64,000 bases of DNA. Source: an uncultured Selenomonadaceae bacterium (GTDB lineage: Bacteria; Bacillota; Negativicutes; Selenomonadales; Selenomonadaceae). Below the pieces are notes generated by a model. It did no database searches. It was not told where the DNA came from and saw only the letters and a list, made by a program, of their open reading frames with translations. Location of the stretch: NCBI GenBank assembly GCA_905234175.1, contig CAJOGX010000005.1, forward strand, positions 785 through 64,784, written 5' to 3'. Shown here piece after piece: positions 10,671-36,988 of this stretch (the stretch's first letter is position 1; each line of letters begins with the position of its first letter). A program made the translations under genes and the position numbers.

Positions 10671-11636
10671 ATGGCTAACGATAAGGCTCGCAAGGGCGAC
10701 GAGACCGCCGGCGATAAGAAGGGCATATTGCTCGAAACTGGTACGAACGAATTTGAAATTGTCGAGTTCAGCATTGGCAAGGTCAATTACGGGATAAACG
10801 TTGCGAAGGTTCGCGAAGTCATTCAGCGCGCGCCGGTAACCGCAATGCCGCAGGCTCACCCGTACATCGACGGCTTATTCACGCTGCGCGGCAAGGCGAT
10901 TCCGCTGGTAAATCTTCCGCGCTGTCTGAATGTGGCGTCCGGCGAAGAGGCGAAAAATATTATCGTCACGGAAATTAACAACTACGGGATTGGTTTTCTG
11001 GTTGAAAACGTTTCGCGCATTCACAGAATTTCGTGGAAGGACATGGAGCCCGCCCCTGAAGTCGGCGACCAGTCGCGCGTCGTCGGTATCATAAAAATGA
11101 GCGACCGCATTGTTCTCCTGCTCGACTTTGAAACGATTATCGCCGAGATTAATCCCGAAATTAACGCGAAACTCACGACGGTTGAGGACGCCACGGAAGA
11201 CGTTCGTTCACTGCGCGCGAATGTTCACGTTGTCGTTGCGGAAGATTCGGGAATGTTGCGCGACCTGCTTGTTACGACGCTGCATGATTCCGGTTACAGA
11301 TTTGTTCGCGACTTCGGCAACGGCCTTGACGCGTGGGATTATCTGCGCAACCTTTCGACGAAGGACGGCCCCATTTACAATCACGTCGGGATTATCGTTT
11401 CTGACGTTGAAATGCCGAAAATGGACGGGCACCGCCTGCTGAAACTCGTGCGCGACAACGAACGGCTCGCCGAAGTTCCATTCGTACTGTTCTCGTCGTT
11501 GATTAGTGAGGAAATGCGCCTGAAGGGCGAATCGCTCGGCGCCAGCGCGCAGATTTCCAAGCCGGAAATAAATCAGCTGATTGGAATTTTGGACAAGCTG
11601 ATTTTCGGCAAGACATTCAACAGCCCGAACGAATAA
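10671..11636 (+). CDS. cheV: chemotaxis protein CheV (CheW domain + receiver domain)
   Basis: ATG at 10671 follows GGGGG. The N-terminal CheW-like domain reads FEIVEFSIGKVNYGINVAKVREV. The C-terminal receiver has VVAEDS...SDVEMPKMDG. Confidence 0.88.
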   Translation: MANDKARKGDETAGDKKGILLETGTNEFEIVEFSIGKVNYGINVAKVREVIQRAPVTAMPQAHPYIDGLFTLRGKAIPLVNLPRCLNVASGEEAKNIIVTEINNYGIGFLVENVSRIHRISWKDMEPAPEVGDQSRVVGIIKMSDRIVLLLDFETIIAEINPEINAKLTTVEDATEDVRSLRANVHVVVAEDSGMLRDLLVTTLHDSGYRFVRDFGNGLDAWDYLRNLSTKDGPIYNHVGIIVSDVEMPKMDGHRLLKLVRDNERLAEVPFVLFSSLISEEMRLKGESLGASAQISKPEINQLIGILDKLIFGKTFNSPNE

Positions 11637-28979: not shown

Positions 28980-29378
28980 GTGGCATTTATCGATAATGAT
29001 TATTGTTTTGCGTGCGGCGCGGAAAATCCGATTGGTCTGCACTTGAAATTTGAGCAGGACGGGGAAAAATTTGTAGCGAAAAAAACTCTAGCGCGTGAGT
29101 TTCAGGGCTATGCGAATGTTGCGCACGGTGGAATTGTGACGACGCTGCTTGATGAGGCAATGGGAAATTACGTGCAGACGGTACATCACCAAATGGCGCT
29201 GACGGGGCGAATCGAAGTGCGATACCACTACCCGACGCCGGTTGAGCAGGAGCTGACAATTTCGGCGTGGCAGGAAGCGCAGCGGCGGAATATCGTTGCG
29301 ATGAAGGCGACGGTGCAGACGGCAGACGGGGGCGTTACGGCTGAGGCGACGGCGAAATTCGCGCTGGTAGCGAAGTGA
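28980..29378 (+). CDS. PaaI-family (hotdog fold) thioesterase
   Basis: GTG at 28980 (or 28971). CFACGAENPIGLHLKF...GYANVAHGGIVTTLLDEAMG is the hotdog motif. The upstream part of the track ORF overlaps DUF554 and is spurious. Confidence 0.78.
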   Translation: MAFIDNDYCFACGAENPIGLHLKFEQDGEKFVAKKTLAREFQGYANVAHGGIVTTLLDEAMGNYVQTVHHQMALTGRIEVRYHYPTPVEQELTISAWQEAQRRNIVAMKATVQTADGGVTAEATAKFALVAK

Positions 29379-30574
29379 CTGACTGGCGCGTTTACGAAAA
29401 GCGGGGCGCAGAATTTTACAAGCTTGGCGATGCTGAGGGCGCAGCTCAGGCGTATTTTGAAGCGGCGCGGGCGGATACGATTTTGAGGAAACAGCGCGAG
29501 CACTGGTCGAATTACATTTTCGCGCTGCACTACCTTCCGCAGTCGACGGCGCAAAATTTTTATGACGCGGCGCAGGTTTACAATGAGCTTTATCGTGACG
29601 TGGAGCCGCTGAAACTTTTGCCGAGGAAGGCTGGGAAAATTCATGTGGCGTACCTTTCGCCGAGCTTTGTGGAGTCGTCAGCTGCCAGATTTTACGAGGC
29701 GCTGTTGACGGAATACGACCGCGAAAAATTTTACGTGACGGCGTGGGATTTGTCGGAGCGCGCGGACAGTTTCACGGTGAAGATTCAGCGGAGCGTCGAC
29801 GGCTATTTCAACATTTCGGAGACGAGTTTTGAGGAGGCGGCGCAGGCTATTCGTGACAGCGGCGCGGATATTCTTTTCGATTTGGGCGGGCACACGGTTG
29901 GCGGCGAGACGCTGGAAGTTGCGGCGTACAGACCGGCGCGCGTGCAGATTTCGGGCGTTGGCTACTTCGACACGACGGGGCTCAGCGCGATTGACTATTT
30001 TCTGACGGATAATTTTCTGGCGGGCTCTCAAACTAAGTTCACGGAAAAAATTCTGGCTGTCGAGAATGCGTTTGCCTTTACGCCGAGCGAAAAAATGATT
30101 CGTGCCAGAGAAAATCTCAACTGGCGCGTGAAAAATTTTGCTTACGGCTGCCTGAATAATTTTATGAAAATCACGGACGGTTATCTTAGCGGCGTGAAAA
30201 AAATTCTGGCGAAAAATCCTGGCGCGAAGATTTTGTTCCGCGATACGACGCCGCTGGAGAGCCGAAAAAATTATCTGCTTGAGCGAATTGACAGCGCTGG
30301 GATTGAGCTTGAGCGCGTGGAAGTTCGGACTGGCGCAAACGATTTTCTGAGCGATTACGCGGAAGTTGATTTGATTTTGGACACGGCTCCTTACAACGGC
30401 GGTTTCATGACGGCGCTGGCGATTTTTATGGGCGTGGCTGTTTCGACGCGGGCTGGCGAACTTCATCACAGCCGGATTGGCGCTGACCTTGTGCGAATTT
30501 CTGAACGCGGCGCGCTTTTTGACACGAAAAATTTTGTTGCGAAGGTGTACGATAAATTTGCGGAAATTGTGTGA
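29375..30574 (+). CDS. TPR + GT41-like (SPINDLY/O-GlcNAc transferase C-terminal) glycosyltransferase
   Basis: The GTGA overlaps the thioesterase stop. VAYLSPSF...DILFDLGGHTVG...RPARVQISGVGYFDTTGL..IDYFLTD matches the GT41 catalytic region as I remember it. Confidence 0.7.
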   Translation: MTDWRVYEKRGAEFYKLGDAEGAAQAYFEAARADTILRKQREHWSNYIFALHYLPQSTAQNFYDAAQVYNELYRDVEPLKLLPRKAGKIHVAYLSPSFVESSAARFYEALLTEYDREKFYVTAWDLSERADSFTVKIQRSVDGYFNISETSFEEAAQAIRDSGADILFDLGGHTVGGETLEVAAYRPARVQISGVGYFDTTGLSAIDYFLTDNFLAGSQTKFTEKILAVENAFAFTPSEKMIRARENLNWRVKNFAYGCLNNFMKITDGYLSGVKKILAKNPGAKILFRDTTPLESRKNYLLERIDSAGIELERVEVRTGANDFLSDYAEVDLILDTAPYNGGFMTALAIFMGVAVSTRAGELHHSRIGADLVRISERGALFDTKNFVAKVYDKFAEIV

Positions 30575-31319
30575 CCTGCTGAGCTTTGTGCCGCCGAATT
30601 TTTCAAGCGACGCGGCAGTTTTGCTGATAGACTCGCCGGAATTTTTAGCTGGCGTGCGGGAACTCATGCCGAATGCGCAGATTTTCCAGCTGGCTTTGGA
30701 AGACGCGCTGCCGGTCGAGCCGAAAATTTTCGACGTGATAATTTCTCCGAACTGCCTGACGTTCGCGCGGGACTGCTATTGGAATTTGCTGGAACTCAAC
30801 CGGCTGTTGAAAGATTCGGGGTTCCTGCTAACGCAGTTTCTGAACGTGCGGTTCGTGGGAGTGCTGGAAAATTTAAAGCGCGGGGCTTTTCCGGCGGGCG
30901 AAAAAAGATTCTGGGCGAAGCGCGACGTAGTAAAAATTTTGGACGACGCGACGTTCAAGGAGATAAGATTTTTGCCAGGCGAGCGCGCGGAAATTTCAAC
31001 TGCCGCGTGGGAAGAATTTGGATTTGACAACTTCAGCGAAGATTTATCGACGCGGGTTTGGCTGGTAAAGGCGTGCAGGTGCACAGCGGAAGTGGCGGCG
31101 CTGAAAGAAATGTACACGCCGGAGGTTCGCGCGGAACTTTCGCGGCTGATTCATCGCGTGGAGTACGGGATAGACGCGGAAAAAAATTTGCAAGCGCTAG
31201 TTGAGCTGTGTCGGCGGGAAAAAATTTTCGTGGAGTATCTGGCGGACTTCGTGGAACAGGTCACGGTACACGCGGCGGCGGCGAAATTTATTCTGGCGGC
31301 GGTTGACAAATCAGTTTGA
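30567..31319 (+). CDS. probable class I SAM-dependent methyltransferase
   Basis: The TTG at 30567 overlaps the GT41 stop; an alternative GTG is at 30588. FDVIISPNCLTF...LNRLLKDSGFLL resembles post-I/II methyltransferase motifs. The C-terminal half is helical. Confidence 0.55.
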   Translation: MCDLLSFVPPNFSSDAAVLLIDSPEFLAGVRELMPNAQIFQLALEDALPVEPKIFDVIISPNCLTFARDCYWNLLELNRLLKDSGFLLTQFLNVRFVGVLENLKRGAFPAGEKRFWAKRDVVKILDDATFKEIRFLPGERAEISTAAWEEFGFDNFSEDLSTRVWLVKACRCTAEVAALKEMYTPEVRAELSRLIHRVEYGIDAEKNLQALVELCRREKIFVEYLADFVEQVTVHAAAAKFILAAVDKSV

Positions 31320-31349
31320 CTTGTGTAAAATTATTGAGCTTTTAAAAAA

Positions 31350-31423
<74 letters not shown>

Positions 31424-31441
31424 CTAAATATTTTTTGGTGT

Positions 31442-31671
31442 GAGCAACGGCTAGGGTCTTGGTTCGCGTCGCGCTTGAATTTTCTCAGCTTCGACTTCGG
31501 TCGGGGCTTTTTGGTTTGAGCAACGGCCAGGGTCTTGGTTCGCGCCGCGCTTGAATTTTCTCAGCCTCGATAAGCGTCGGGGCTTTTTTAGTTCGAGCAA
31601 CGGCTAGGGTCTTGATTCACGTCGCGCCTGAATTTTCTCAGCCTCGATGAATGTCGGGGCTTTTTTATTTT
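31442..31671 (+). repeat. three tandem 76-77-nt tRNA-derived units, each ending in a hairpin + T-run
   Basis: Units are 31442-31517, 31518-31594 and 31595-31671. Each starts gagcaacggc (= tRNA positions 22-31), then gggtc...ttcgcgtcgcgc (T-arm-like). Each ends gcctcga-N6-tcggggc + T5-6. Confidence 0.9.
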
Positions 31672-31680
31672 ATACGTGCC

Positions 31681-31708
31681 TTGACAGCCTGCAACGGGGG
31701 GGTATTAT
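31681..31708 (+). promoter_or_regulatory. near-consensus sigma70 promoter of the GTPase module (TTGACA - 16 nt - TATTAT)
   Basis: ttgaca at 31681-31686 and tattat at 31703-31708. This implies a ~100-nt leader before the GAAGGAGG RBS and the ATG at 31816. Confidence 0.65.
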
Positions 31709-31815
31709 ACACTTAAATTTATAGCGCAAAAATATTTCTGGAAATTGTCCCAGCGTACCAACAAAACGGAAAATCTTTGTGCTATGCTTGAAAAAAATTT
31801 GAAGGAGGCGTTCAA

Positions 31816-33864
31816 ATGAGCGATATTCAACAGGAGCTTGCGGCGTGCCGAGAATCTGCCGAAATTGGCTACCAGCTCGCGCAGGAAAGTTTTGAAAAGC
31901 TGCAGGAGGCGCTTGAAGAGGAGCGCGAAAAGCTCCGTGAGGCAGACCGCCGCCAGCAAAGTTCGCGGCTGGAAAACGACAGTCATTTTCAGGATCAGCT
32001 TTGGGAAATGAACCGGCTGGAGCGTGAGACCGTCAGTAGCGTCGAAGACAATCTGCGCGACCTCAGGAAAAAAATGGCGGACTTCACGATAGTTTTGTAC
32101 GGGCGGACGATGGCCGGAAAGTCGACGCTTATGGAAATTCTGCGGCACGGCGACGGCAGTTCAATCGGCAAGGGCGCACAGCGTACGACGCGGGACGTTC
32201 GCGCCTACACGTGGAACGGCTTGAAAATTTTTGACGTACCTGGCACCTGTTCGTTTGGCGGAGAGAGCGATGATAGACTTGCATACGAGGCGGCAAAGGA
32301 CGCGGATATTGCGCTGTTCCTGCTAACGGACGACGCTCCACAACCTTCCGAGGCGCAGCGTTTAGCCGAACTGCGCAAGCTCGGCAAGCCGGTTCTCGGT
32401 ATAGTCAACGTCAAGCAGGTTTTGTCGCCGGAGCGCAACAGTGCCAAGCGGAAAATGGATTTGCGGCAGCTCGATAAAAAAATTCACGATAAGACGCGGC
32501 TTGAGGAAATCGTCCAGCAGTTCAAGGAATTTTCAAAGGACAAAGGCTACAACTTTGAAGAGGTGCCGTTCGTGTATTCGCATTTGCAGTCGGCGTTTTT
32601 CTCCCAGCGCGAAAATGATTCGTCACTTTACGAGCTCAGCAACTTCGCGGCGGTGGAAAATTTTATTATTGAGAAAGTGCAAAACGACGGTCCATTCATT
32701 CGTATAAAAACTTTCGTCGACGCCGTTGCCCGCCCAATGCAAAAATCTATCGCCACGCTTTACGGGCAAAGCAGCGAAACTGTCAAGGCTTGGAAAAGTT
32801 ACGGCGACAAAATCACAGCGCTCAGGGAATGGCACGAAAGTTTTCTTAGCCGCGCTCAATCTCGCTACAACAATTTCAGAGACAATCTTGAATCGCAGCT
32901 GAACGCGAAAATTAATTATATCGTGAATAATTATTACGATACGTCACGCGCTGGCGAATACTGGATGCAGGCTGTCGAGGAGCTGAACATTGCGCGGCAG
33001 TGTCAAAGTTTTATTGAAGGAATTAGCGAGGAAGTTACTGATAAACTGCACGAACTCAGCGACGAACTCACGCAGGATTTGGAATATGCTGGCGTTGATT
33101 TCAGTGCGCCGGAAGTTTCGTACAAGGATACTGACGATGTTCAGGGCGGTTTGTTGCTTGCGGCGCCGTTTTTAGCGCTTACTCCCGTTGGTTGGGCAGG
33201 CGCGGCACTTTTTGGTTTAGGCTCGCTGCTTTTCGGTAAAAGTAAATCTGAGAAAATCGCAGAAGCTAAGCAAAAACTCCGCGCTGAATTAATTCCTTCC
33301 CGTGACGAAATTCTTAGTAAAACTACAGACAGCGTTTTAAATACGCTCAACGGGCAAATCATTGAAAGGCAAATAGTTGGCTTTGGAGATACGCTTTATT
33401 CTATGAGGGACAGACTGGCAGACCTTGCCTATGCTCAAAATGCCATAGCTGACACGATTAATTTCCAGTATCAGGACTTGAACTTTAAAATGCTCGTACG
33501 CGCGGCTATGTATTCTAACGTTGAACCCGACAAATTTTCAAACGTTACTACCGCTCGCATTGTTGGCAGGGAATTTGTTATCATTAATGCGACAAGAATG
33601 TATGTACCAAGCCAGCGCAAAATTTCTAACCTGATTGGCGAAAAAGTTACCGTTTATGAAGTAACCGCCGAGAATTATTTCGACGAAGTATTTAATAACG
33701 TGCGCGATAACATTCTCAATTATGAGTTCAGCTTCACCAAATTTTACGAGAACGAAGATACCGGCGATATGTACATAATTCTTCTGCCGCGCTACGAAAA
33801 TTTCTCGGATACACAGATTGAACTGACGCAGCAGCTGTTCAGCGACCCCGTTGTGTTTTATTAA
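31816..33864 (+). CDS. large P-loop GTPase with N-terminal coiled coil, helical stalk, membrane-hairpin segment and unknown C-terminal domain (dynamin-like, atypical)
   Basis: 682 aa. G1 GRTMAGKST (32101-32127), RTTRD, G3 DVPG. NVKQ stands where NKxD is expected. A hydrophobic Gly/Ala/Leu segment lies at 33145-33237. Confidence 0.8.
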   Translation: MSDIQQELAACRESAEIGYQLAQESFEKLQEALEEEREKLREADRRQQSSRLENDSHFQDQLWEMNRLERETVSSVEDNLRDLRKKMADFTIVLYGRTMAGKSTLMEILRHGDGSSIGKGAQRTTRDVRAYTWNGLKIFDVPGTCSFGGESDDRLAYEAAKDADIALFLLTDDAPQPSEAQRLAELRKLGKPVLGIVNVKQVLSPERNSAKRKMDLRQLDKKIHDKTRLEEIVQQFKEFSKDKGYNFEEVPFVYSHLQSAFFSQRENDSSLYELSNFAAVENFIIEKVQNDGPFIRIKTFVDAVARPMQKSIATLYGQSSETVKAWKSYGDKITALREWHESFLSRAQSRYNNFRDNLESQLNAKINYIVNNYYDTSRAGEYWMQAVEELNIARQCQSFIEGISEEVTDKLHELSDELTQDLEYAGVDFSAPEVSYKDTDDVQGGLLLAAPFLALTPVGWAGAALFGLGSLLFGKSKSEKIAEAKQKLRAELIPSRDEILSKTTDSVLNTLNGQIIERQIVGFGDTLYSMRDRLADLAYAQNAIADTINFQYQDLNFKMLVRAAMYSNVEPDKFSNVTTARIVGREFVIINATRMYVPSQRKISNLIGEKVTVYEVTAENYFDEVFNNVRDNILNYEFSFTKFYENEDTGDMYIILLPRYENFSDTQIELTQQLFSDPVVFY

Positions 33865-33877
33865 GGAGGGCGGCGCA

Positions 33878-35542
33878 ATGACGAATTTTCAGCTTGAAGA
33901 ATTTGTGCGGCGCGGCGGCGTTTTGCTCAGCGATACCAGAAAAATTTTCGCGGACTACGACGGCCTCGGTTTGGAATTTAAGCCGCTGCCCGAAACTATG
34001 AAACCGGCTGAAGGTCCTATCAAGCTCGTGTTCGTTGGGCAGTACAGTTCCGGCAAGTCCAGCATAATAAAAATGCTCAGCGGTATCGAGACGGAAATTG
34101 GCGCCGGTATCAAGACGCAGGAGGCGCATACCTACCGCTGGGGCGATTTGGAAATTATCGACACGCCTGGCATTCATACAGAAATTCGCCCCGACCACGA
34201 CGAGAAAACTTACTACGAAATCGACCACGCCGCGCTTCTTATTTTCGTCGTCACCAACGAAGGCTTCGATGACCGCATGGGCAAGCACTTCCGCAAGCTC
34301 GCCATTGAACAGGATCGCGGCAAAAATATGGTGCTGGTCGTCAACAAAATGGACAGGACGGGTCTCGGCAACGTCCCAGAACAGCAGGAAGTTATCGCGC
34401 AGGATTTGAAAAAAGTTATCGAGCCGCTCACGCCGGAAAGTTTGTACCTCAGCTTCCTCGACACTGAATCTTATTTCGCGTGGCTGGACGAAACCGACGA
34501 AGAAATTAAAAATTTGCTGTACGAACAGAGCGGCCTTGAAAAATTCGTTACGAATCTTAACGCGTTCGTAGCAAGTCGCGGAGTACTTTCCAAAGTTCAG
34601 GCGCCACTCGAAACGCTCAAAAGCGCCGTCACCAACGTTATCGGCGAATCCGAAAACTTGAGCGTCGACCGTGACATTGACGCGGCGGAAGAACTTTTGC
34701 GGCGCCGCCAGAAAACGCTCCTCGACGGCAGGCGCAGAATCAATACCGAAATCAGCGAGCTTGCCGAAACGCTCTGCACGAAAATCAAAACCGAGGGATC
34801 CAACGCCGCCAGCAAAATCGTCGCCGGCATAAGCGAGGACGAAGCCAAACGCGTAGTTGAGGCCGCCCAACTTCAGGCGGAAACTTACGTAAGCGCCTAC
34901 AAATCCCAAATTTCCAGCCGCCTCGCTGATATCTGTATCGAAATCGGAAAGGAAATTGACACAATCGACAGCTCCAATTTCGCCGTGAACGTGCAGGTTA
35001 ATCTTAGCAACCGCATTTCCAGCGCCCCCAGTAACGACGCCAACGCGCTTACTCTGACGAAGAACGCACTTTCTTTGGACGTTGCGCTGACTTCAGGTGA
35101 GGTGGCGGCTAACAGTTCCGGTCTTATCAGCACTGTCAAGGAAATTGGGAAGTTCCTCGGCTTCAAATTTGCGCCGTGGGGAGCCGTCAATCTCGTCAAA
35201 TATCTCGGCTGGATTGGCGCTGCGTATTCCGCCTGGCAGATTCTCAAAACGCTTTTCGGCGAAGATAAGCAAAAAAAAATGGAGGAAGACCTCCGTAAGG
35301 CGCGAGAAGAAATTCAGAACGGTTTCAACGCGGCGGCTGAAAATATTCGCACGGAAATTATTCGCGAAACGACCAGCAAAATGGACGAGCTTACCGCGCC
35401 AGTCCTTCGCGAAGCCAACGATAAAATTGCGGAATTTCAGCGCAAGAAAGACCGACTCAAATCGCTGGGGCACGCGCTCCAAAAAATTCTCGCAGATGTC
35501 AAAACGCTGATGAGCGAAGTCCAGCAGACTGCAAAGGCGTGA
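33878..35542 (+). CDS. dynamin-family GTPase (bacterial dynamin-like protein)
   Basis: 554 aa. ATG lies 8 nt after AAGGAGGG. G1 GQYSSGKSS (34037-34063), G3 DTPG (34160), G4 NKMD (34343). A long charged helical region and a hydrophobic segment FAPWGAVNLVKYLGWIGAAYSAWQIL follow. Confidence 0.85.
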   Translation: MTNFQLEEFVRRGGVLLSDTRKIFADYDGLGLEFKPLPETMKPAEGPIKLVFVGQYSSGKSSIIKMLSGIETEIGAGIKTQEAHTYRWGDLEIIDTPGIHTEIRPDHDEKTYYEIDHAALLIFVVTNEGFDDRMGKHFRKLAIEQDRGKNMVLVVNKMDRTGLGNVPEQQEVIAQDLKKVIEPLTPESLYLSFLDTESYFAWLDETDEEIKNLLYEQSGLEKFVTNLNAFVASRGVLSKVQAPLETLKSAVTNVIGESENLSVDRDIDAAEELLRRRQKTLLDGRRRINTEISELAETLCTKIKTEGSNAASKIVAGISEDEAKRVVEAAQLQAETYVSAYKSQISSRLADICIEIGKEIDTIDSSNFAVNVQVNLSNRISSAPSNDANALTLTKNALSLDVALTSGEVAANSSGLISTVKEIGKFLGFKFAPWGAVNLVKYLGWIGAAYSAWQILKTLFGEDKQKKMEEDLRKAREEIQNGFNAAAENIRTEIIRETTSKMDELTAPVLREANDKIAEFQRKKDRLKSLGHALQKILADVKTLMSEVQQTAKA

Positions 35543-35546
35543 TTCA

Positions 35547-36008
35547 ATGAAAAAATTTTGGCGCCCAGCTATTGATAAGGCGGACAAAATTTCCAAAATA
35601 CCAGACAACATTTCCAAAATCGCAGACGACGTTTCAAAAATTGCTAATGGCGCTCCGAGAAATTTGCCGCTGGAACCGAAAAAGAAAGATTCACAAAGCG
35701 TGCTGGCGCTCTTCCAGACAGCGCAGCGGTCAATAAAACAAAAAATCGCACCTTCCAAAACCATTCAGGAAATTTTTCAGGAGGCGCAGAAAACCGCGCG
35801 AAAATCCGCCAGAGCAGCCGAAAAAGTCCGGCAGAAATCGCCGCCGAAAATTCAATCCGCAATATCTGACGGAGTATCGTTTTTCATATTAAAATTTATA
35901 TTAGCTGCCGCCGCCATCATTTTTTTATTGTCGAGCATAAATTTAGGTTCAGTTATAGTTTTTATTTACATGATTTGGCTTGTTATCAAATTAATTATCA
36001 GCGATTAG
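35547..36008 (+). CDS. small membrane protein with N-terminal ISKI-type repeats and two C-terminal TM helices
   Basis: 153 aa, starting 4 nt after the GTPase-2 stop. DKISKIPDNISKIADDVSKIANG is followed by a Lys-rich linker, then FFILKFILAAAAIIFLL and VIVFIYMIWLVIKLII. Confidence 0.6.
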   Translation: MKKFWRPAIDKADKISKIPDNISKIADDVSKIANGAPRNLPLEPKKKDSQSVLALFQTAQRSIKQKIAPSKTIQEIFQEAQKTARKSARAAEKVRQKSPPKIQSAISDGVSFFILKFILAAAAIIFLLSSINLGSVIVFIYMIWLVIKLIISD

Positions 36009-36988
36009 CCGAGCGCCAGCCTCAGCCGCAGAAAATACGATTCAGCCAGCAGCCTCAGCGCCGCATTTGAGCGCAGCCGCCGCTGAGTTTCCGTCCCCGC
36101 GTCGAACAGTTCGCAGAGCGTTTCGGCGGGGATTTTTATTTTCGCCAGCCGCGCTTTCAAGTCCGCGTTGAACGGTTCCGCCGCGTCCGACAAATAAACG
36201 TCGCGCAGGATTTTTTGCACGTACGAAACGAACTCGCTGAAATTTTCGCGCGTCCACTTGTCAACCTCGGCGCCCCTGCTGAAAATATCTTCGACGGAAA
36301 TTTTCTTAGCGCAGAGCTTTTCGATAAGGTCAATGGCAGATTCGCGCAGTTCATAGCCGCCGGAATTTTCCAGCCGGAGCGCGCGCCCTAAACTTCCGTC
36401 CGCAATCAGCGAAATTGTTTCCGCGCGAGATTTTTCGACGCCGCGAAGTTCCAGCGCAGTTGCAATTTCAGAGGCGGGAATTTTTTCAAAGTTTACCGTG
36501 ACACAGCGCGACCGCACCGTCATGAGCAAGCCCGCGCGATTCGCCGTGACTAAAATGAACAGTGACTGCCCCGTTGGTTCCTCAAGCGTTTTCAGCAGGC
36601 AGTTCGCCGCCGCGTTGTTCATCAGCTCAGCGCCGTCGATTATTACCACGCGCCTTTCTGAACGCATTGGCTTGACGGCGGTTTCAGTTTGCAGCGCGCG
36701 AATCTGAGCAATTTTGATACTCGGCGCGGTCTTGGATTCTTCCGGCTCGACAACCAGAAAATCTGGGTGACTGCCCGCCGCCATGAGTTTGCAACTTTCG
36801 CAGACGCCGCAAGCCTCGCCGGAATTTGGATTTTCGCAAAGGATAGCCGCCGCGCAACTTTCAGCGATTTTGCGCTTGCCAATACCAGCGGCGCCGGAAA
36901 AAATCACAGCGTGCGGGAATTTATCCTCAGCGATAATTTTCCTGAGCTGGCTGATTCGCGCGGCGTTCCCAAAAATTTGCCCGCCCAT
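36005..36988 (-). CDS. holB: DNA polymerase III subunit delta'
   Basis: 327 aa. HAVIFSGAAGIGK, a Cys-rich zinc module CGVCESCK, and VVIIDGAELMN. It directly follows yaaR. Confidence 0.9.
   Translation of the reverse strand: MGGQIFGNAARISQLRKIIAEDKFPHAVIFSGAAGIGKRKIAESCAAAILCENPNSGEACGVCESCKLMAAGSHPDFLVVEPEESKTAPSIKIAQIRALQTETAVKPMRSERRVVIIDGAELMNNAAANCLLKTLEEPTGQSLFILVTANRAGLLMTVRSRCVTVNFEKIPASEIATALELRGVEKSRAETISLIADGSLGRALRLENSGGYELRESAIDLIEKLCAKKISVEDIFSRGAEVDKWTRENFSEFVSYVQKILRDVYLSDAAEPFNADLKARLAKIKIPAETLCELFDAGTETQRRLRSNAALRLLAESYFLRLRLALG

What the first reader, a model, noticed from the sequence alone, without database searches (positions are those of the whole stretch)
31681..36008. 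tRNA-flanked three-gene module: two divergent P-loop/dynamin-like GTPases plus a small repeat-bearing membrane protein behind its own consensus promoter
Seen in sequence:
- Three same-strand ORFs are separated by only 13 and 4 nt: 31816-33864 (682 aa), 33878-35542 (554 aa) and 35547-36008 (153 aa).
- They sit behind TTGACA-16-TATTAT and strong GGAGG ribosome-binding sites.
- ORF2 has canonical G1/G3/G4 motifs (GQYSSGKSS, DTPG, NKMD), a long charged helical region and a hydrophobic/aromatic segment.
- ORF1 is atypical. A ~95-aa charged coiled-coil-like N-terminus precedes the P-loop GRTMAGKST. G3 is DVPG, but NVKQ replaces NKxD. A Gly/Ala/Leu membrane-hairpin-like segment follows, then ~200 C-terminal residues with no motif I recognise.
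- ORF3 carries three ISKI-type repeats and two TM helices.
- The module lies between a tRNA-Arg with tRNA-derived repeats and the convergent holB. Its stop codon overlaps the holB stop, so no terminator fits. No integrase is present.

Established knowledge: paired bacterial dynamin-like proteins remodel or repair membranes. Examples are Nostoc BDLP, B. subtilis DynA, mycobacterial IniA/IniC, Campylobacter DLP1/2 and ETEC LeoABC. As I recall, LeoA/LeoBC-type pairs have also been reported as an anti-phage system (Eleos).

Inference: this is a horizontally acquired membrane-surveillance or defence module. The atypical first GTPase and the third gene may make it a variant that is not yet described.
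Basis: partly seen in the sequence, partly recalled or inferred. Interest (0 to 1): 0.8.

Follow-up and report, generated by a model that had tools for sequence, protein, structure and literature searches.

The report
Eleos dynamin-like anti-phage gene pair
This is an ordinary two-gene Eleos (LeoBC + LeoA) dynamin-like phage-defence system in a rumen Selenomonadaceae genome. The "third gene" and the "own promoter" are also found, joined directly, in related genomes that have no Eleos pair, so neither is specific to it.

Summary
The sequence observations are accurate.

ORF1 and ORF2 are a clear LeoBC/LeoA pair, which is the Eleos ("Dynamins") anti-phage system (PADLOC E 6e-84 and 9e-90). ORF1 models as a dynamin-like fold, with BDLP, IniA and LeoA as the top PDB matches.

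ORF1 is not atypical. Its N-terminal helices, the N-V-K motif, the hydrophobic hairpin and the C-terminal alpha/beta domain are conserved across LeoBC homologues from many phyla.

ORF3 is not part of the system. It belongs to a very narrow family of small membrane proteins that sits against holB in related genomes lacking Eleos. It is missing from the closest intact Eleos copy at the same site.

The promoter is also present in Eleos-free relatives, where it lies about 30 nt upstream of the ORF3 homologue.

The pair is accessory: intact in two lineages, decayed in one, absent in at least five.

Verdict: a new member of a known kind, of low to moderate interest.

The parts
31350..31424 (+). tRNA-Arg(TCT). 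It is the conserved left landmark of the variable interval and has its own promoter-like site at 31303-31331.
   Evidence: ARAGORN; Rfam tRNA 68 bits; promoter scan. The same tRNA is present in Eleos-free L004 and L091.
31431..31671 (+). Three tandem 76-nt units. Each is a degenerate copy of the tRNA 3' half (variable loop and T arm) followed by an intrinsic-terminator hairpin. This is backbone sequence, not part of the Eleos insert.
   Evidence: TRF: period 76, 3.1 copies, 87% match; three terminator-like hairpins; alignment to the tRNA and to the L091 tRNA-plus-terminator. Copies also occur in the Eleos-free L004/L006.
31681..31708 (+). Sigma-70-type promoter TTGACA-16-TATTAT. It is shared with Eleos-free relatives, where it drives the ORF3 homologue.
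   Evidence: 11 of 12 match; conserved in the window, L009, L091 and L092 in alignment A2, and seen in L095 and L096.
31728..31815 (+). 5' leader found only in Eleos-bearing copies (window, L009, L095). Homology to the Eleos-free L091/L092 ends at about 31727, which marks the left junction.
31816..33864 (+). LeoBC-type dynamin-like GTPase (682 aa). It has N-terminal helical hairpin 2-85, G domain about 90-256 (P-loop K102), helical stalk, hydrophobic membrane hairpin about 441-473, a long return helix 477-566, and C-terminal alpha/beta domain 574-682.
   Evidence: PADLOC LeoBC E 6.4e-84; Pfam MMR_HSR1; AF2 pLDDT 82.7; Foldseek BDLP, IniA, LeoA, Cj-DLP; family alignment A1.
33535..33861 (+). 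C-terminal alpha/beta domain of LeoBC (residues 574-682). It is confidently modelled, has no fold relative in the PDB or BFVD, and is conserved across LeoBC homologues.
   Evidence: AF2 pLDDT 95.6; best PDB match E 0.024, TM 0.38; no BFVD match; a domain HMM detects it in distant LeoBC proteins; always at the extreme C-terminus in the representative search.
33878..35542 (+). LeoA-type dynamin-like GTPase (554 aa). It has a canonical G1 (K60), G3 and G4, and a DLP helical domain with an aromatic, amphipathic paddle-like segment.
   Evidence: PADLOC LeoA E 9.1e-90; Pfam MMR_HSR1, DLP_helical and Dynamin_N, all above cut-off; motifs.
35547..36008 (+). Resident small membrane-protein gene (153 aa, 2 TM helices, lineage-specific 21-nt repeat expansion). 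It is co-transcribed by position but is not a component of the Eleos system.
   Evidence: Homologues next to holB without Eleos; absent from L009; family of only 8 clusters; dN/dS 0.36.
36005..36988 (-). holB (DNA polymerase III delta'). It is the convergent core gene and the right landmark of the interval.
   Evidence: Pfam DNA_pol3_delta2 in contig gene calls; a cluster member is named DNA polymerase III subunit delta'.

Best explanation
ORF1 and ORF2 form an Eleos (formerly "Dynamins") anti-phage system. ORF1 is a membrane-anchored LeoBC-type dynamin-like GTPase and ORF2 is a LeoA-type partner.

Shown here: family membership, the dynamin-like fold of ORF1, intact P-loops in both proteins, a conserved LeoBC-then-LeoA gene order, and accessory presence/absence among relatives.

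Inferred from the family: the two proteins associate through their G domains at the inner face of the cytoplasmic membrane. LeoBC is held there by its hydrophobic hairpin, and LeoA is recruited through its paddle and through LeoBC. GTP-driven conformational change remodels or seals membrane during infection, which blocks or delays productive phage development or lysis. The conserved C-terminal alpha/beta domain of LeoBC is a candidate sensing or partner-binding module.

In this genome the pair lies between a promoter and a small membrane-protein gene (ORF3), two elements that are joined directly in Eleos-free relatives. The pair therefore most likely uses that promoter, and ORF3 is a downstream passenger rather than a system component.
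For: - PADLOC: LeoBC E 6.4e-84 over residues 8-562, and LeoA E 9.1e-90 over residues 45-550.
- Pfam: MMR_HSR1, Dynamin_N and DLP_helical on ORF2.
- Structure: the AF2 model of ORF1 (pLDDT 82.7, pTM 0.78) matches BDLP 2J68 (6e-10), IniA 6J72, LeoA 4AUR (1.7e-8), Cj-DLP 5OWV/5OXF, Drp1 and MxA/B.
- Gene order: a LeoBC-like gene immediately followed by a LeoA-like gene occurs in nearly all of 80 loci from many phyla.
- Accessory status: absent from L004-L008, L091, L092, L093 and L096; intact in L009; decayed in L095.
- Experimental precedent: the B. vietnamensis two-gene dynamin system protects B. subtilis from jumbo phages AR9 and PBS1, and P-loop mutation of either gene abolishes defence (10.1101/2022.05.11.491447). 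The system was named Eleos in 10.1101/2022.12.12.520048. DynA delays phage lysis by supporting membrane integrity (PMC8844932).
Against: - No experiment exists for this homologue or for any Selenomonadaceae or other diderm Negativicutes host.
- The validated system is only about 30% identical and protected against two jumbo phages only.
- The defence mechanism of Eleos is unknown, so the membrane-sealing step is an analogy.
- This locus sits among housekeeping genes with no other defence gene beside it in the window.
- ORF2 scores far below the curated cut-off of the NCBIfam LeoA/HP0731 subfamily (66.5 against 325 bits).
- Profile searches of ORF1 against PDB sequences find only generic GTPases.
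Confidence: 0.72

Rival explanations
1. The pair is a housekeeping membrane-maintenance system, like B. subtilis DynA or mycobacterial IniA/IniC. It would repair envelope damage from antibiotics, bacteriocins or stress, with no dedicated anti-phage role.
For: It is embedded among core genes (GlmU, Prs, SecG, holB, PBP1A) with no neighbouring defence genes. IniA is among the top structural matches. Bacterial DLPs are known for membrane surveillance (PMC8844932).
Against: It is absent from at least five sister lineages at the same site and pseudogenised in another. This is typical of accessory defence genes, not housekeeping ones. The best profile matches are the defence-system models LeoBC and LeoA. 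The same interval carries a different defence-candidate gene (PDC-M09A-like) in L092.
Confidence: 0.15
2. The pair is a vesicle-release or secretion module like ETEC LeoABC. It would promote outer-membrane vesicle formation in this diderm Negativicutes host.
For: ETEC leoA and leoB knockouts reduce membrane-vesicle release by about 50% (PMC4159319). Selenomonadaceae have an outer membrane (established knowledge).
Against: ORF1 and ORF2 have no signal peptides or periplasmic targeting features that I could see. ORF2 is only a distant relative of ETEC LeoA (NCBIfam LeoA/HP0731 66.5 bits against a 325-bit cut-off). Millman et al. reinterpreted the Leo operon family as defensive.
Confidence: 0.08
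3. This is a genuine three-component Eleos variant in which the small membrane protein ORF3 is a functional partner (anchor, effector or regulator) of the GTPase pair.
For: ORF3 starts 4 nt after the LeoA stop on the same strand and probably shares the transcript. It has two TM helices. L095 also has an ORF3 homologue after its decayed Eleos pair.
Against: ORF3 homologues occur next to holB without Eleos in L091, L092, L093 and L096. L009 keeps an intact pair with ORF3 deleted. There is no tblastn hit of ORF3 in any of 80 LeoBC loci, and no consistent third gene follows LeoA. The ORF3 family has only 8 clusters in 5.8 billion proteins.
Confidence: 0.05

Closest known systems
Eleos / "Dynamins" anti-phage system (LeoBC + LeoA), validated from Bacillus vietnamensis NBRC 101237 (Millman et al. 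2022; named Eleos by Cury et al. 2022)
   Same: Two consecutive dynamin-like GTPase genes in the order LeoBC then LeoA. Both P-loops are intact. There are full-length matches to the PADLOC LeoBC and LeoA models. The pair has a patchy, accessory distribution.
   Different: Only about 30% identity to Bacillota homologues outside Selenomonadaceae. The host is a diderm Negativicute. The pair is not in a defence island and has no promoter exclusive to it: the upstream promoter also heads the neighbouring small gene in Eleos-free relatives. Anti-phage activity is untested.
ETEC H10407 LeoABC (LeoA structure 4AUR)
   Same: A homologous operon architecture and a dynamin-like fold. LeoA 4AUR is a top structural match to the ORF1 model (E 1.7e-8).
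   Different: In ETEC the first gene is split into LeoC and LeoB, whereas here it is fused. ETEC LeoC carries an N-terminal TM anchor and LeoA is reported as periplasmic. ORF2 is far below the NCBIfam LeoA/HP0731 cut-off. The ETEC function is described as vesicle or toxin release.
Nostoc BDLP, Campylobacter DLP1/DLP2, mycobacterial IniA/IniC, B. subtilis DynA
   Same: G domain plus helical neck and trunk plus a membrane-inserting paddle or hairpin. They occur as tandem or fused pairs. The top Foldseek matches are 2J68, 6J72 and 5OWV.
   Different: About 12-14% sequence identity. LeoBC carries an extra C-terminal alpha/beta domain (574-682) that these structures did not match. Those proteins are mostly core rather than accessory genes.

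Membership tests
Eleos (PADLOC/DefenseFinder: LeoA + LeoBC) | A protein matching the LeoBC profile | tested here: met
   PDLC03841 LeoBC E 6.4e-84, 281 bits, residues 8-562 against model positions 11-567 of 601.
Eleos (PADLOC/DefenseFinder: LeoA + LeoBC) | A protein matching the LeoA profile | tested here: met
   PDLC03839 LeoA E 9.1e-90, 300 bits, residues 45-550 against model positions 55-556 of 559.
Eleos (PADLOC/DefenseFinder: LeoA + LeoBC) | The two genes are adjacent on the same strand, with LeoBC first | tested here: met
   13-nt gap on the same strand. The same order is seen in nearly all of 80 related loci and in the validated system.
Eleos (PADLOC/DefenseFinder: LeoA + LeoBC) | Intact phosphate-binding loops in both GTPases, required for defence in the validated system | tested here: met
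   GRTMAGKST at 96-104, invariant across the family, and GQYSSGKSS at 54-62.
Eleos (PADLOC/DefenseFinder: LeoA + LeoBC) | Confers resistance to phage infection | not testable with these tools
   Needs phage challenge of a strain expressing 31672-35546.
Dynamin-like protein superfamily | G domain joined to a helical neck/trunk bundle with a membrane-binding tip | tested here: met
   The ORF1 AF2 model matches BDLP, IniA, LeoA, Cj-DLP, Drp1 and Mx over 570-750 alignment columns. TM-scores are low (0.2-0.4), as expected for hinged proteins. ORF2 matches Pfam Dynamin_N (32.6 bits, cut-off 27) and DLP_helical (36.8 bits, cut-off 25.5).
NCBIfam NF041922 LeoA/HP0731 family dynamin-like GTPase | Score at or above the curated cut-off of 325 bits | tested here: not met
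   ORF2 scores 66.5 bits. It is a distant relative, not a member of that narrow subfamily.
   ORF3 has no hit in any LeoBC locus outside this lineage. It is present without Eleos in L091, L092, L093 and L096, and absent from the intact Eleos copy in L009.
tRNA-targeted integrative island | An integrase, and direct repeats of the tRNA 3' end bracketing the cargo | tested here: not met
   No integrase is called in the contig gene lists around the site. The tRNA-derived repeats all lie upstream of the cargo and are also present in Eleos-free genomes. No tRNA-like copy lies at the right junction.

The most novel reading that the evidence does not exclude
The confidently modelled C-terminal alpha/beta domain of LeoBC (residues 574-682) is conserved across phyla, always terminal, and has no fold relative in the PDB or BFVD. 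It could be the undescribed phage-sensing or partner-docking module that gives Eleos its specificity.

A second and less likely reading is that, in this lineage, the resident membrane protein ORF3 has been co-opted as an accessory factor, because the pair sits inside its transcription unit.
Probability: 0.2. Interest if true: 0.5.

Novelty: new member of a known kind. Interest (0 to 1): 0.27.

Why it matters
It adds a Selenomonadaceae (rumen, diderm Bacillota) example to a validated defence family whose mechanism is still unknown.

It also documents one way such a pair sits in a genome. There is no integrase. The pair lies between a promoter and a small gene that are joined directly in related genomes, in an interval between tRNA-Arg and holB that carries different defence-like cargo in sister lineages. 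Across those lineages the pair is intact, decayed or absent.

The practical lesson for annotation is that a tightly abutting downstream gene and a strong upstream promoter need not belong to the defence system. Comparison with Eleos-free sites resolved this here.

The conserved C-terminal LeoBC domain with no known fold relative is a concrete target for mechanistic work on Eleos.

Tried and rejected
- Direct phmmer of ORF1 and ORF2 against PDB sequences, and a profile search with A1, found only generic TRAFAC GTPases. Structure prediction was needed to show the dynamin fold.
- ORF3 alone found only itself among 5.8 billion proteins. It looked like an orphan until the empty-site comparison exposed homologues, and a 3-sequence profile then found 8 clusters.
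- Pfam, PADLOC and NCBIfam gave nothing credible for ORF3 or its L091 homologue.
- Rfam found nothing in the leader or the repeats except the tRNA.
- The leader upstream of ORF1 is not shared with LeoBC loci at other genomic sites. I could not show that it travels with the pair.
- I tried to decide between insertion and deletion from the junction sequences. The right junction (AAGGCGTGATTCAATG) resembles the RBS region of Eleos-free L091 and L093. It also encodes the conserved LeoA C-terminus TAKA*. holB identities are star-like at 85-92%. The polarity is left unresolved.
- Foldseek of the C-terminal domain against the PDB and BFVD gave no significant match.
- A search for a positionally analogous small TM gene after LeoA in other loci found only scattered raw ORFs and no pattern.
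- Phage records hold no relative of ORF1. Plasmids hold only distant ones.
Full report
**1. Observation**

- Three same-strand ORFs lie at 31816-33864 (682 aa), 33878-35542 (554 aa) and 35547-36008 (153 aa), separated by 13 and 4 nt.
- A TTGACA-16-TATTAT site lies at 31681-31708.
- GGAGG-type ribosome-binding sites precede ORF1 and ORF2. ORF3 has only AAGG.
- The quoted G motifs are at ORF1 96-104, 140-143 and 198-201, and at ORF2 54-62, 95-98 and 156-159.
- ORF3 carries a 21-nt tandem repeat of 2.8 copies and two strongly hydrophobic C-terminal segments.
- tRNA-Arg(TCT) at 31350-31424 is the only tRNA in the window.
- The tRNA is followed by 3.1 copies of a 76-nt unit at 31431-31671. Each unit is a degenerate copy of the tRNA 3' half plus a terminator hairpin.
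- The ORF3 stop overlaps the stop of the convergent holB.

**2. What ORF1 and ORF2 are**

Profile searches place both proteins in known families.
- PADLOC gives near full-length matches: ORF1 to LeoBC (E 6.4e-84) and ORF2 to LeoA (E 9.1e-90).
- Pfam finds MMR_HSR1 in both. In ORF2 it also finds Dynamin_N and DLP_helical above their cut-offs.

Sequence searches against the PDB were uninformative, so I modelled ORF1 with an alignment of 26 homologues.
- The model has pLDDT 82.7 and pTM 0.78.
- Foldseek returns bacterial and eukaryotic dynamin-like proteins at the top: BDLP 2J68 (6e-10), IniA 6J72, LeoA 4AUR (1.7e-8), Campylobacter DLP 5OWV/5OXF, Drp1, and MxA/MxB.

LeoBC plus LeoA is the two-gene "dynamin" system of Millman et al.
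- The copy from B. vietnamensis protects B. subtilis against jumbo phages AR9 and PBS1.
- That protection needs the P-loop of each protein (10.1101/2022.05.11.491447).
- The system was later named Eleos (10.1101/2022.12.12.520048).

**3. ORF1 is a typical LeoBC, not an atypical one**

ORF1 has 1248 homologues at E <= 1e-5, and many are full length at 37-82% identity in Selenomonadaceae.
- the N-terminal helical hairpin (helices 2-47 and 56-85 in the model);
- the P-loop;
- DxPG;
- the N198-V-K200 motif that replaces NKxD, in which N and K are invariant;
- the hydrophobic hairpin;
- the C-terminal region.

The last approximately 110 residues (574-682) form a compact alpha/beta domain.
- It is modelled at pLDDT 95.6.
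- It has no significant match in the PDB (best E 0.024, TM 0.38) or in BFVD.
- An HMM of this domain detects it in most LeoBC homologues from distant phyla, including Heyndrickxia, Parabeggiatoa, Nitrospira and Binatia (E 1e-5 to 1e-10). The usual protein length is about 690 aa.
- In an exhaustive search the domain is always at the extreme C-terminus.

It is therefore a family feature that the PADLOC model only partly covers. It does not make this copy a new variant.

**4. ORF3 and the promoter are not specific to the pair**

The organism is a Selenomonadaceae MAG. I compared contigs from sister lineages whose holB is 85-92% identical at the nucleotide level.

| Locus | Eleos pair | ORF3 homologue | Promoter | Source calls |
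|---|---|---|---|---|
| Window | intact | 153 aa | present | 1, 10 |
| L009 | intact (about 80% nt identity) | absent; LeoA stop is 5 nt from the holB stop | present | 18, 20, 29 |
| L095 | decayed (in-frame stops, frameshifts, three deletions) | 119 aa | present | 50, 52 |
| L091 | absent | 136 aa | present, about 30 nt upstream of the ORF3 homologue | 31, 34, 37 |
| L092 | absent | 136 aa | present, about 30 nt upstream | 32, 34, 37 |
| L096 | absent | 169 aa | present | 51, 52 |
| L093 | absent | 136 aa | absent | 49, 52 |
| L004-L008 | absent | 52-aa remnant (MKKFW...NISK...APRNLP...GASFFI) | degenerate | 17, 20, 29, 30 |

Further points on ORF3:
- The ORF3 family comprises only 8 clusters among 5.8 billion proteins.
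- It evolves quickly but under some constraint, with dN/dS 0.36 between L091 and L092.
- The ISKI repeats are an expansion specific to the window lineage.
- ORF3 has no tblastn hit in any of the 80 LeoBC loci fetched from GTDB genomes. No consistent third gene follows LeoA there.

Conclusion: the mobile or variable unit is the leader plus ORF1 plus ORF2 (about 31728-35543). It lies between a promoter and a small gene that form a unit in Eleos-free relatives.

**5. Gain or loss**

The pair is accessory: intact in two lineages, decayed in one, and absent in at least five. I could not decide between one insertion followed by losses and other histories.
- holB distances are star-like.
- The right-junction sequence is ambiguous. 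It resembles the RBS region of the Eleos-free sites, but it also encodes the conserved LeoA C-terminus.

Other evidence bearing on mobility:
- There is no integrase near the site.
- The tRNA-derived repeats lie upstream of the cargo and also occur in Eleos-free genomes. They are not att scars bracketing this module.
- The interval nevertheless looks like a hotspot. In L092 a PDC-M09A-like gene (E 1e-30) and a 444-aa gene with a C19orf12-like glycine-zipper segment lie just upstream of the same terminator and promoter.
- Composition deviates only mildly: ORF1 GC 0.48 and ORF2 GC 0.52, against 0.53 for the window.
- Distant relatives occur on large Klebsiella and B. cereus plasmids. None occur in phage records.

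**6. Mechanism**

Shown here:
- two dynamin-like GTPases with intact nucleotide-binding motifs;
- a hydrophobic hairpin in LeoBC (residues 441-473, low pLDDT, Kyte-Doolittle 1.64);
- a helical DLP domain with an aromatic paddle-like segment in LeoA.

Inferred from LeoABC, BDLP, Cj-DLP1/2 and DynA (PMC4159319; PMC8844932):
- The G domains heterodimerise at the membrane.
- GTP-driven remodelling or sealing then interferes with phage development or lysis.

How Eleos actually defends is unknown in the literature I could search.

**7. Verdict**

This is a real, correctly located feature. It is a new member of the known Eleos family and not a new variant. The three-gene reading, the "own promoter" and the "atypical GTPase" are not supported.

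Two things keep some interest: the family-wide C-terminal domain with no known fold relative, and the well-resolved example of a defence pair sitting between a promoter and a gene that are contiguous in related genomes.

Noticed in passing
window 31431-31671; L004 11163-11380; L091 6746-6853: The copy number of the 76-nt unit (tRNA 3' half plus terminator) after tRNA-Arg(TCT) varies between sister lineages. There are 3 units in the window and 2 in L004/L006. L091, L093 and L095 have only the plain terminator. Each copy has lost the anticodon arm and the acceptor 3' strand. Why this segment duplicates in tandem is unexplained.
   Followed up: partly
L092 1910-4285 (- strand of the locus; same interval as the window's 31430-31680): In another sister lineage the tRNA-Arg-to-holB interval carries different cargo. 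One gene is a 335-aa PDC-M09A-like protein (PADLOC E 1e-30) that also weakly matches the stalk and hairpin part of the LeoBC model. The other is a 444-aa protein with a C19orf12-like glycine-zipper segment. This suggests the interval is a hotspot for membrane-acting defence candidates.
   Followed up: partly
L095 115-3751: This is a decayed copy of the same Eleos pair at the same site. It has in-frame stop codons near codon 70 of LeoBC, frameshifts, and three internal deletions relative to the window, yet it is still followed by an ORF3 homologue. The damage could be real pseudogenisation or partly assembly error.
   Followed up: partly
window 35547-36008; L004 rc 10985-11143: The ORF3 family ranges from 52 to 169 aa across sister lineages. 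It has a variable N-terminus, including a 21-nt repeat expansion only in the window lineage. Its conserved core is QEIFQxAQxxARKSxxAxEKxRQKxPPxIQSA, followed by two TM helices. The function is unknown and the family is confined to a handful of Selenomonadaceae contigs.
   Followed up: partly
L079 262-8228; L076 478-4798: L079 (uncultured proteobacterium RUG347) carries two complete LeoBC-LeoA pairs in tandem. L076 (Selenomonadaceae) carries two LeoBC-like genes in tandem with no LeoA detected.
   Followed up: no
window 29375-30574 and 30477-31319: The listed 280-aa ORF (TTG start at 30477) overlaps the end of the Glyco_transf_41-like ORF by about 98 nt. The orthologue in L004 is called at 253 aa with a 17-nt overlap, so the true start in the window is probably further downstream.
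   Followed up: no
window 31816-33864, 33878-35542 and 36005-36988, compared with L009: Between the window and L009, the Eleos genes are more diverged (about 80% nt; 81% and 77% aa) than the adjacent holB (about 89-91% nt). This is consistent with faster evolution of the defence genes, or with exchange of the cassette between related species by flanking homology.
   Followed up: no
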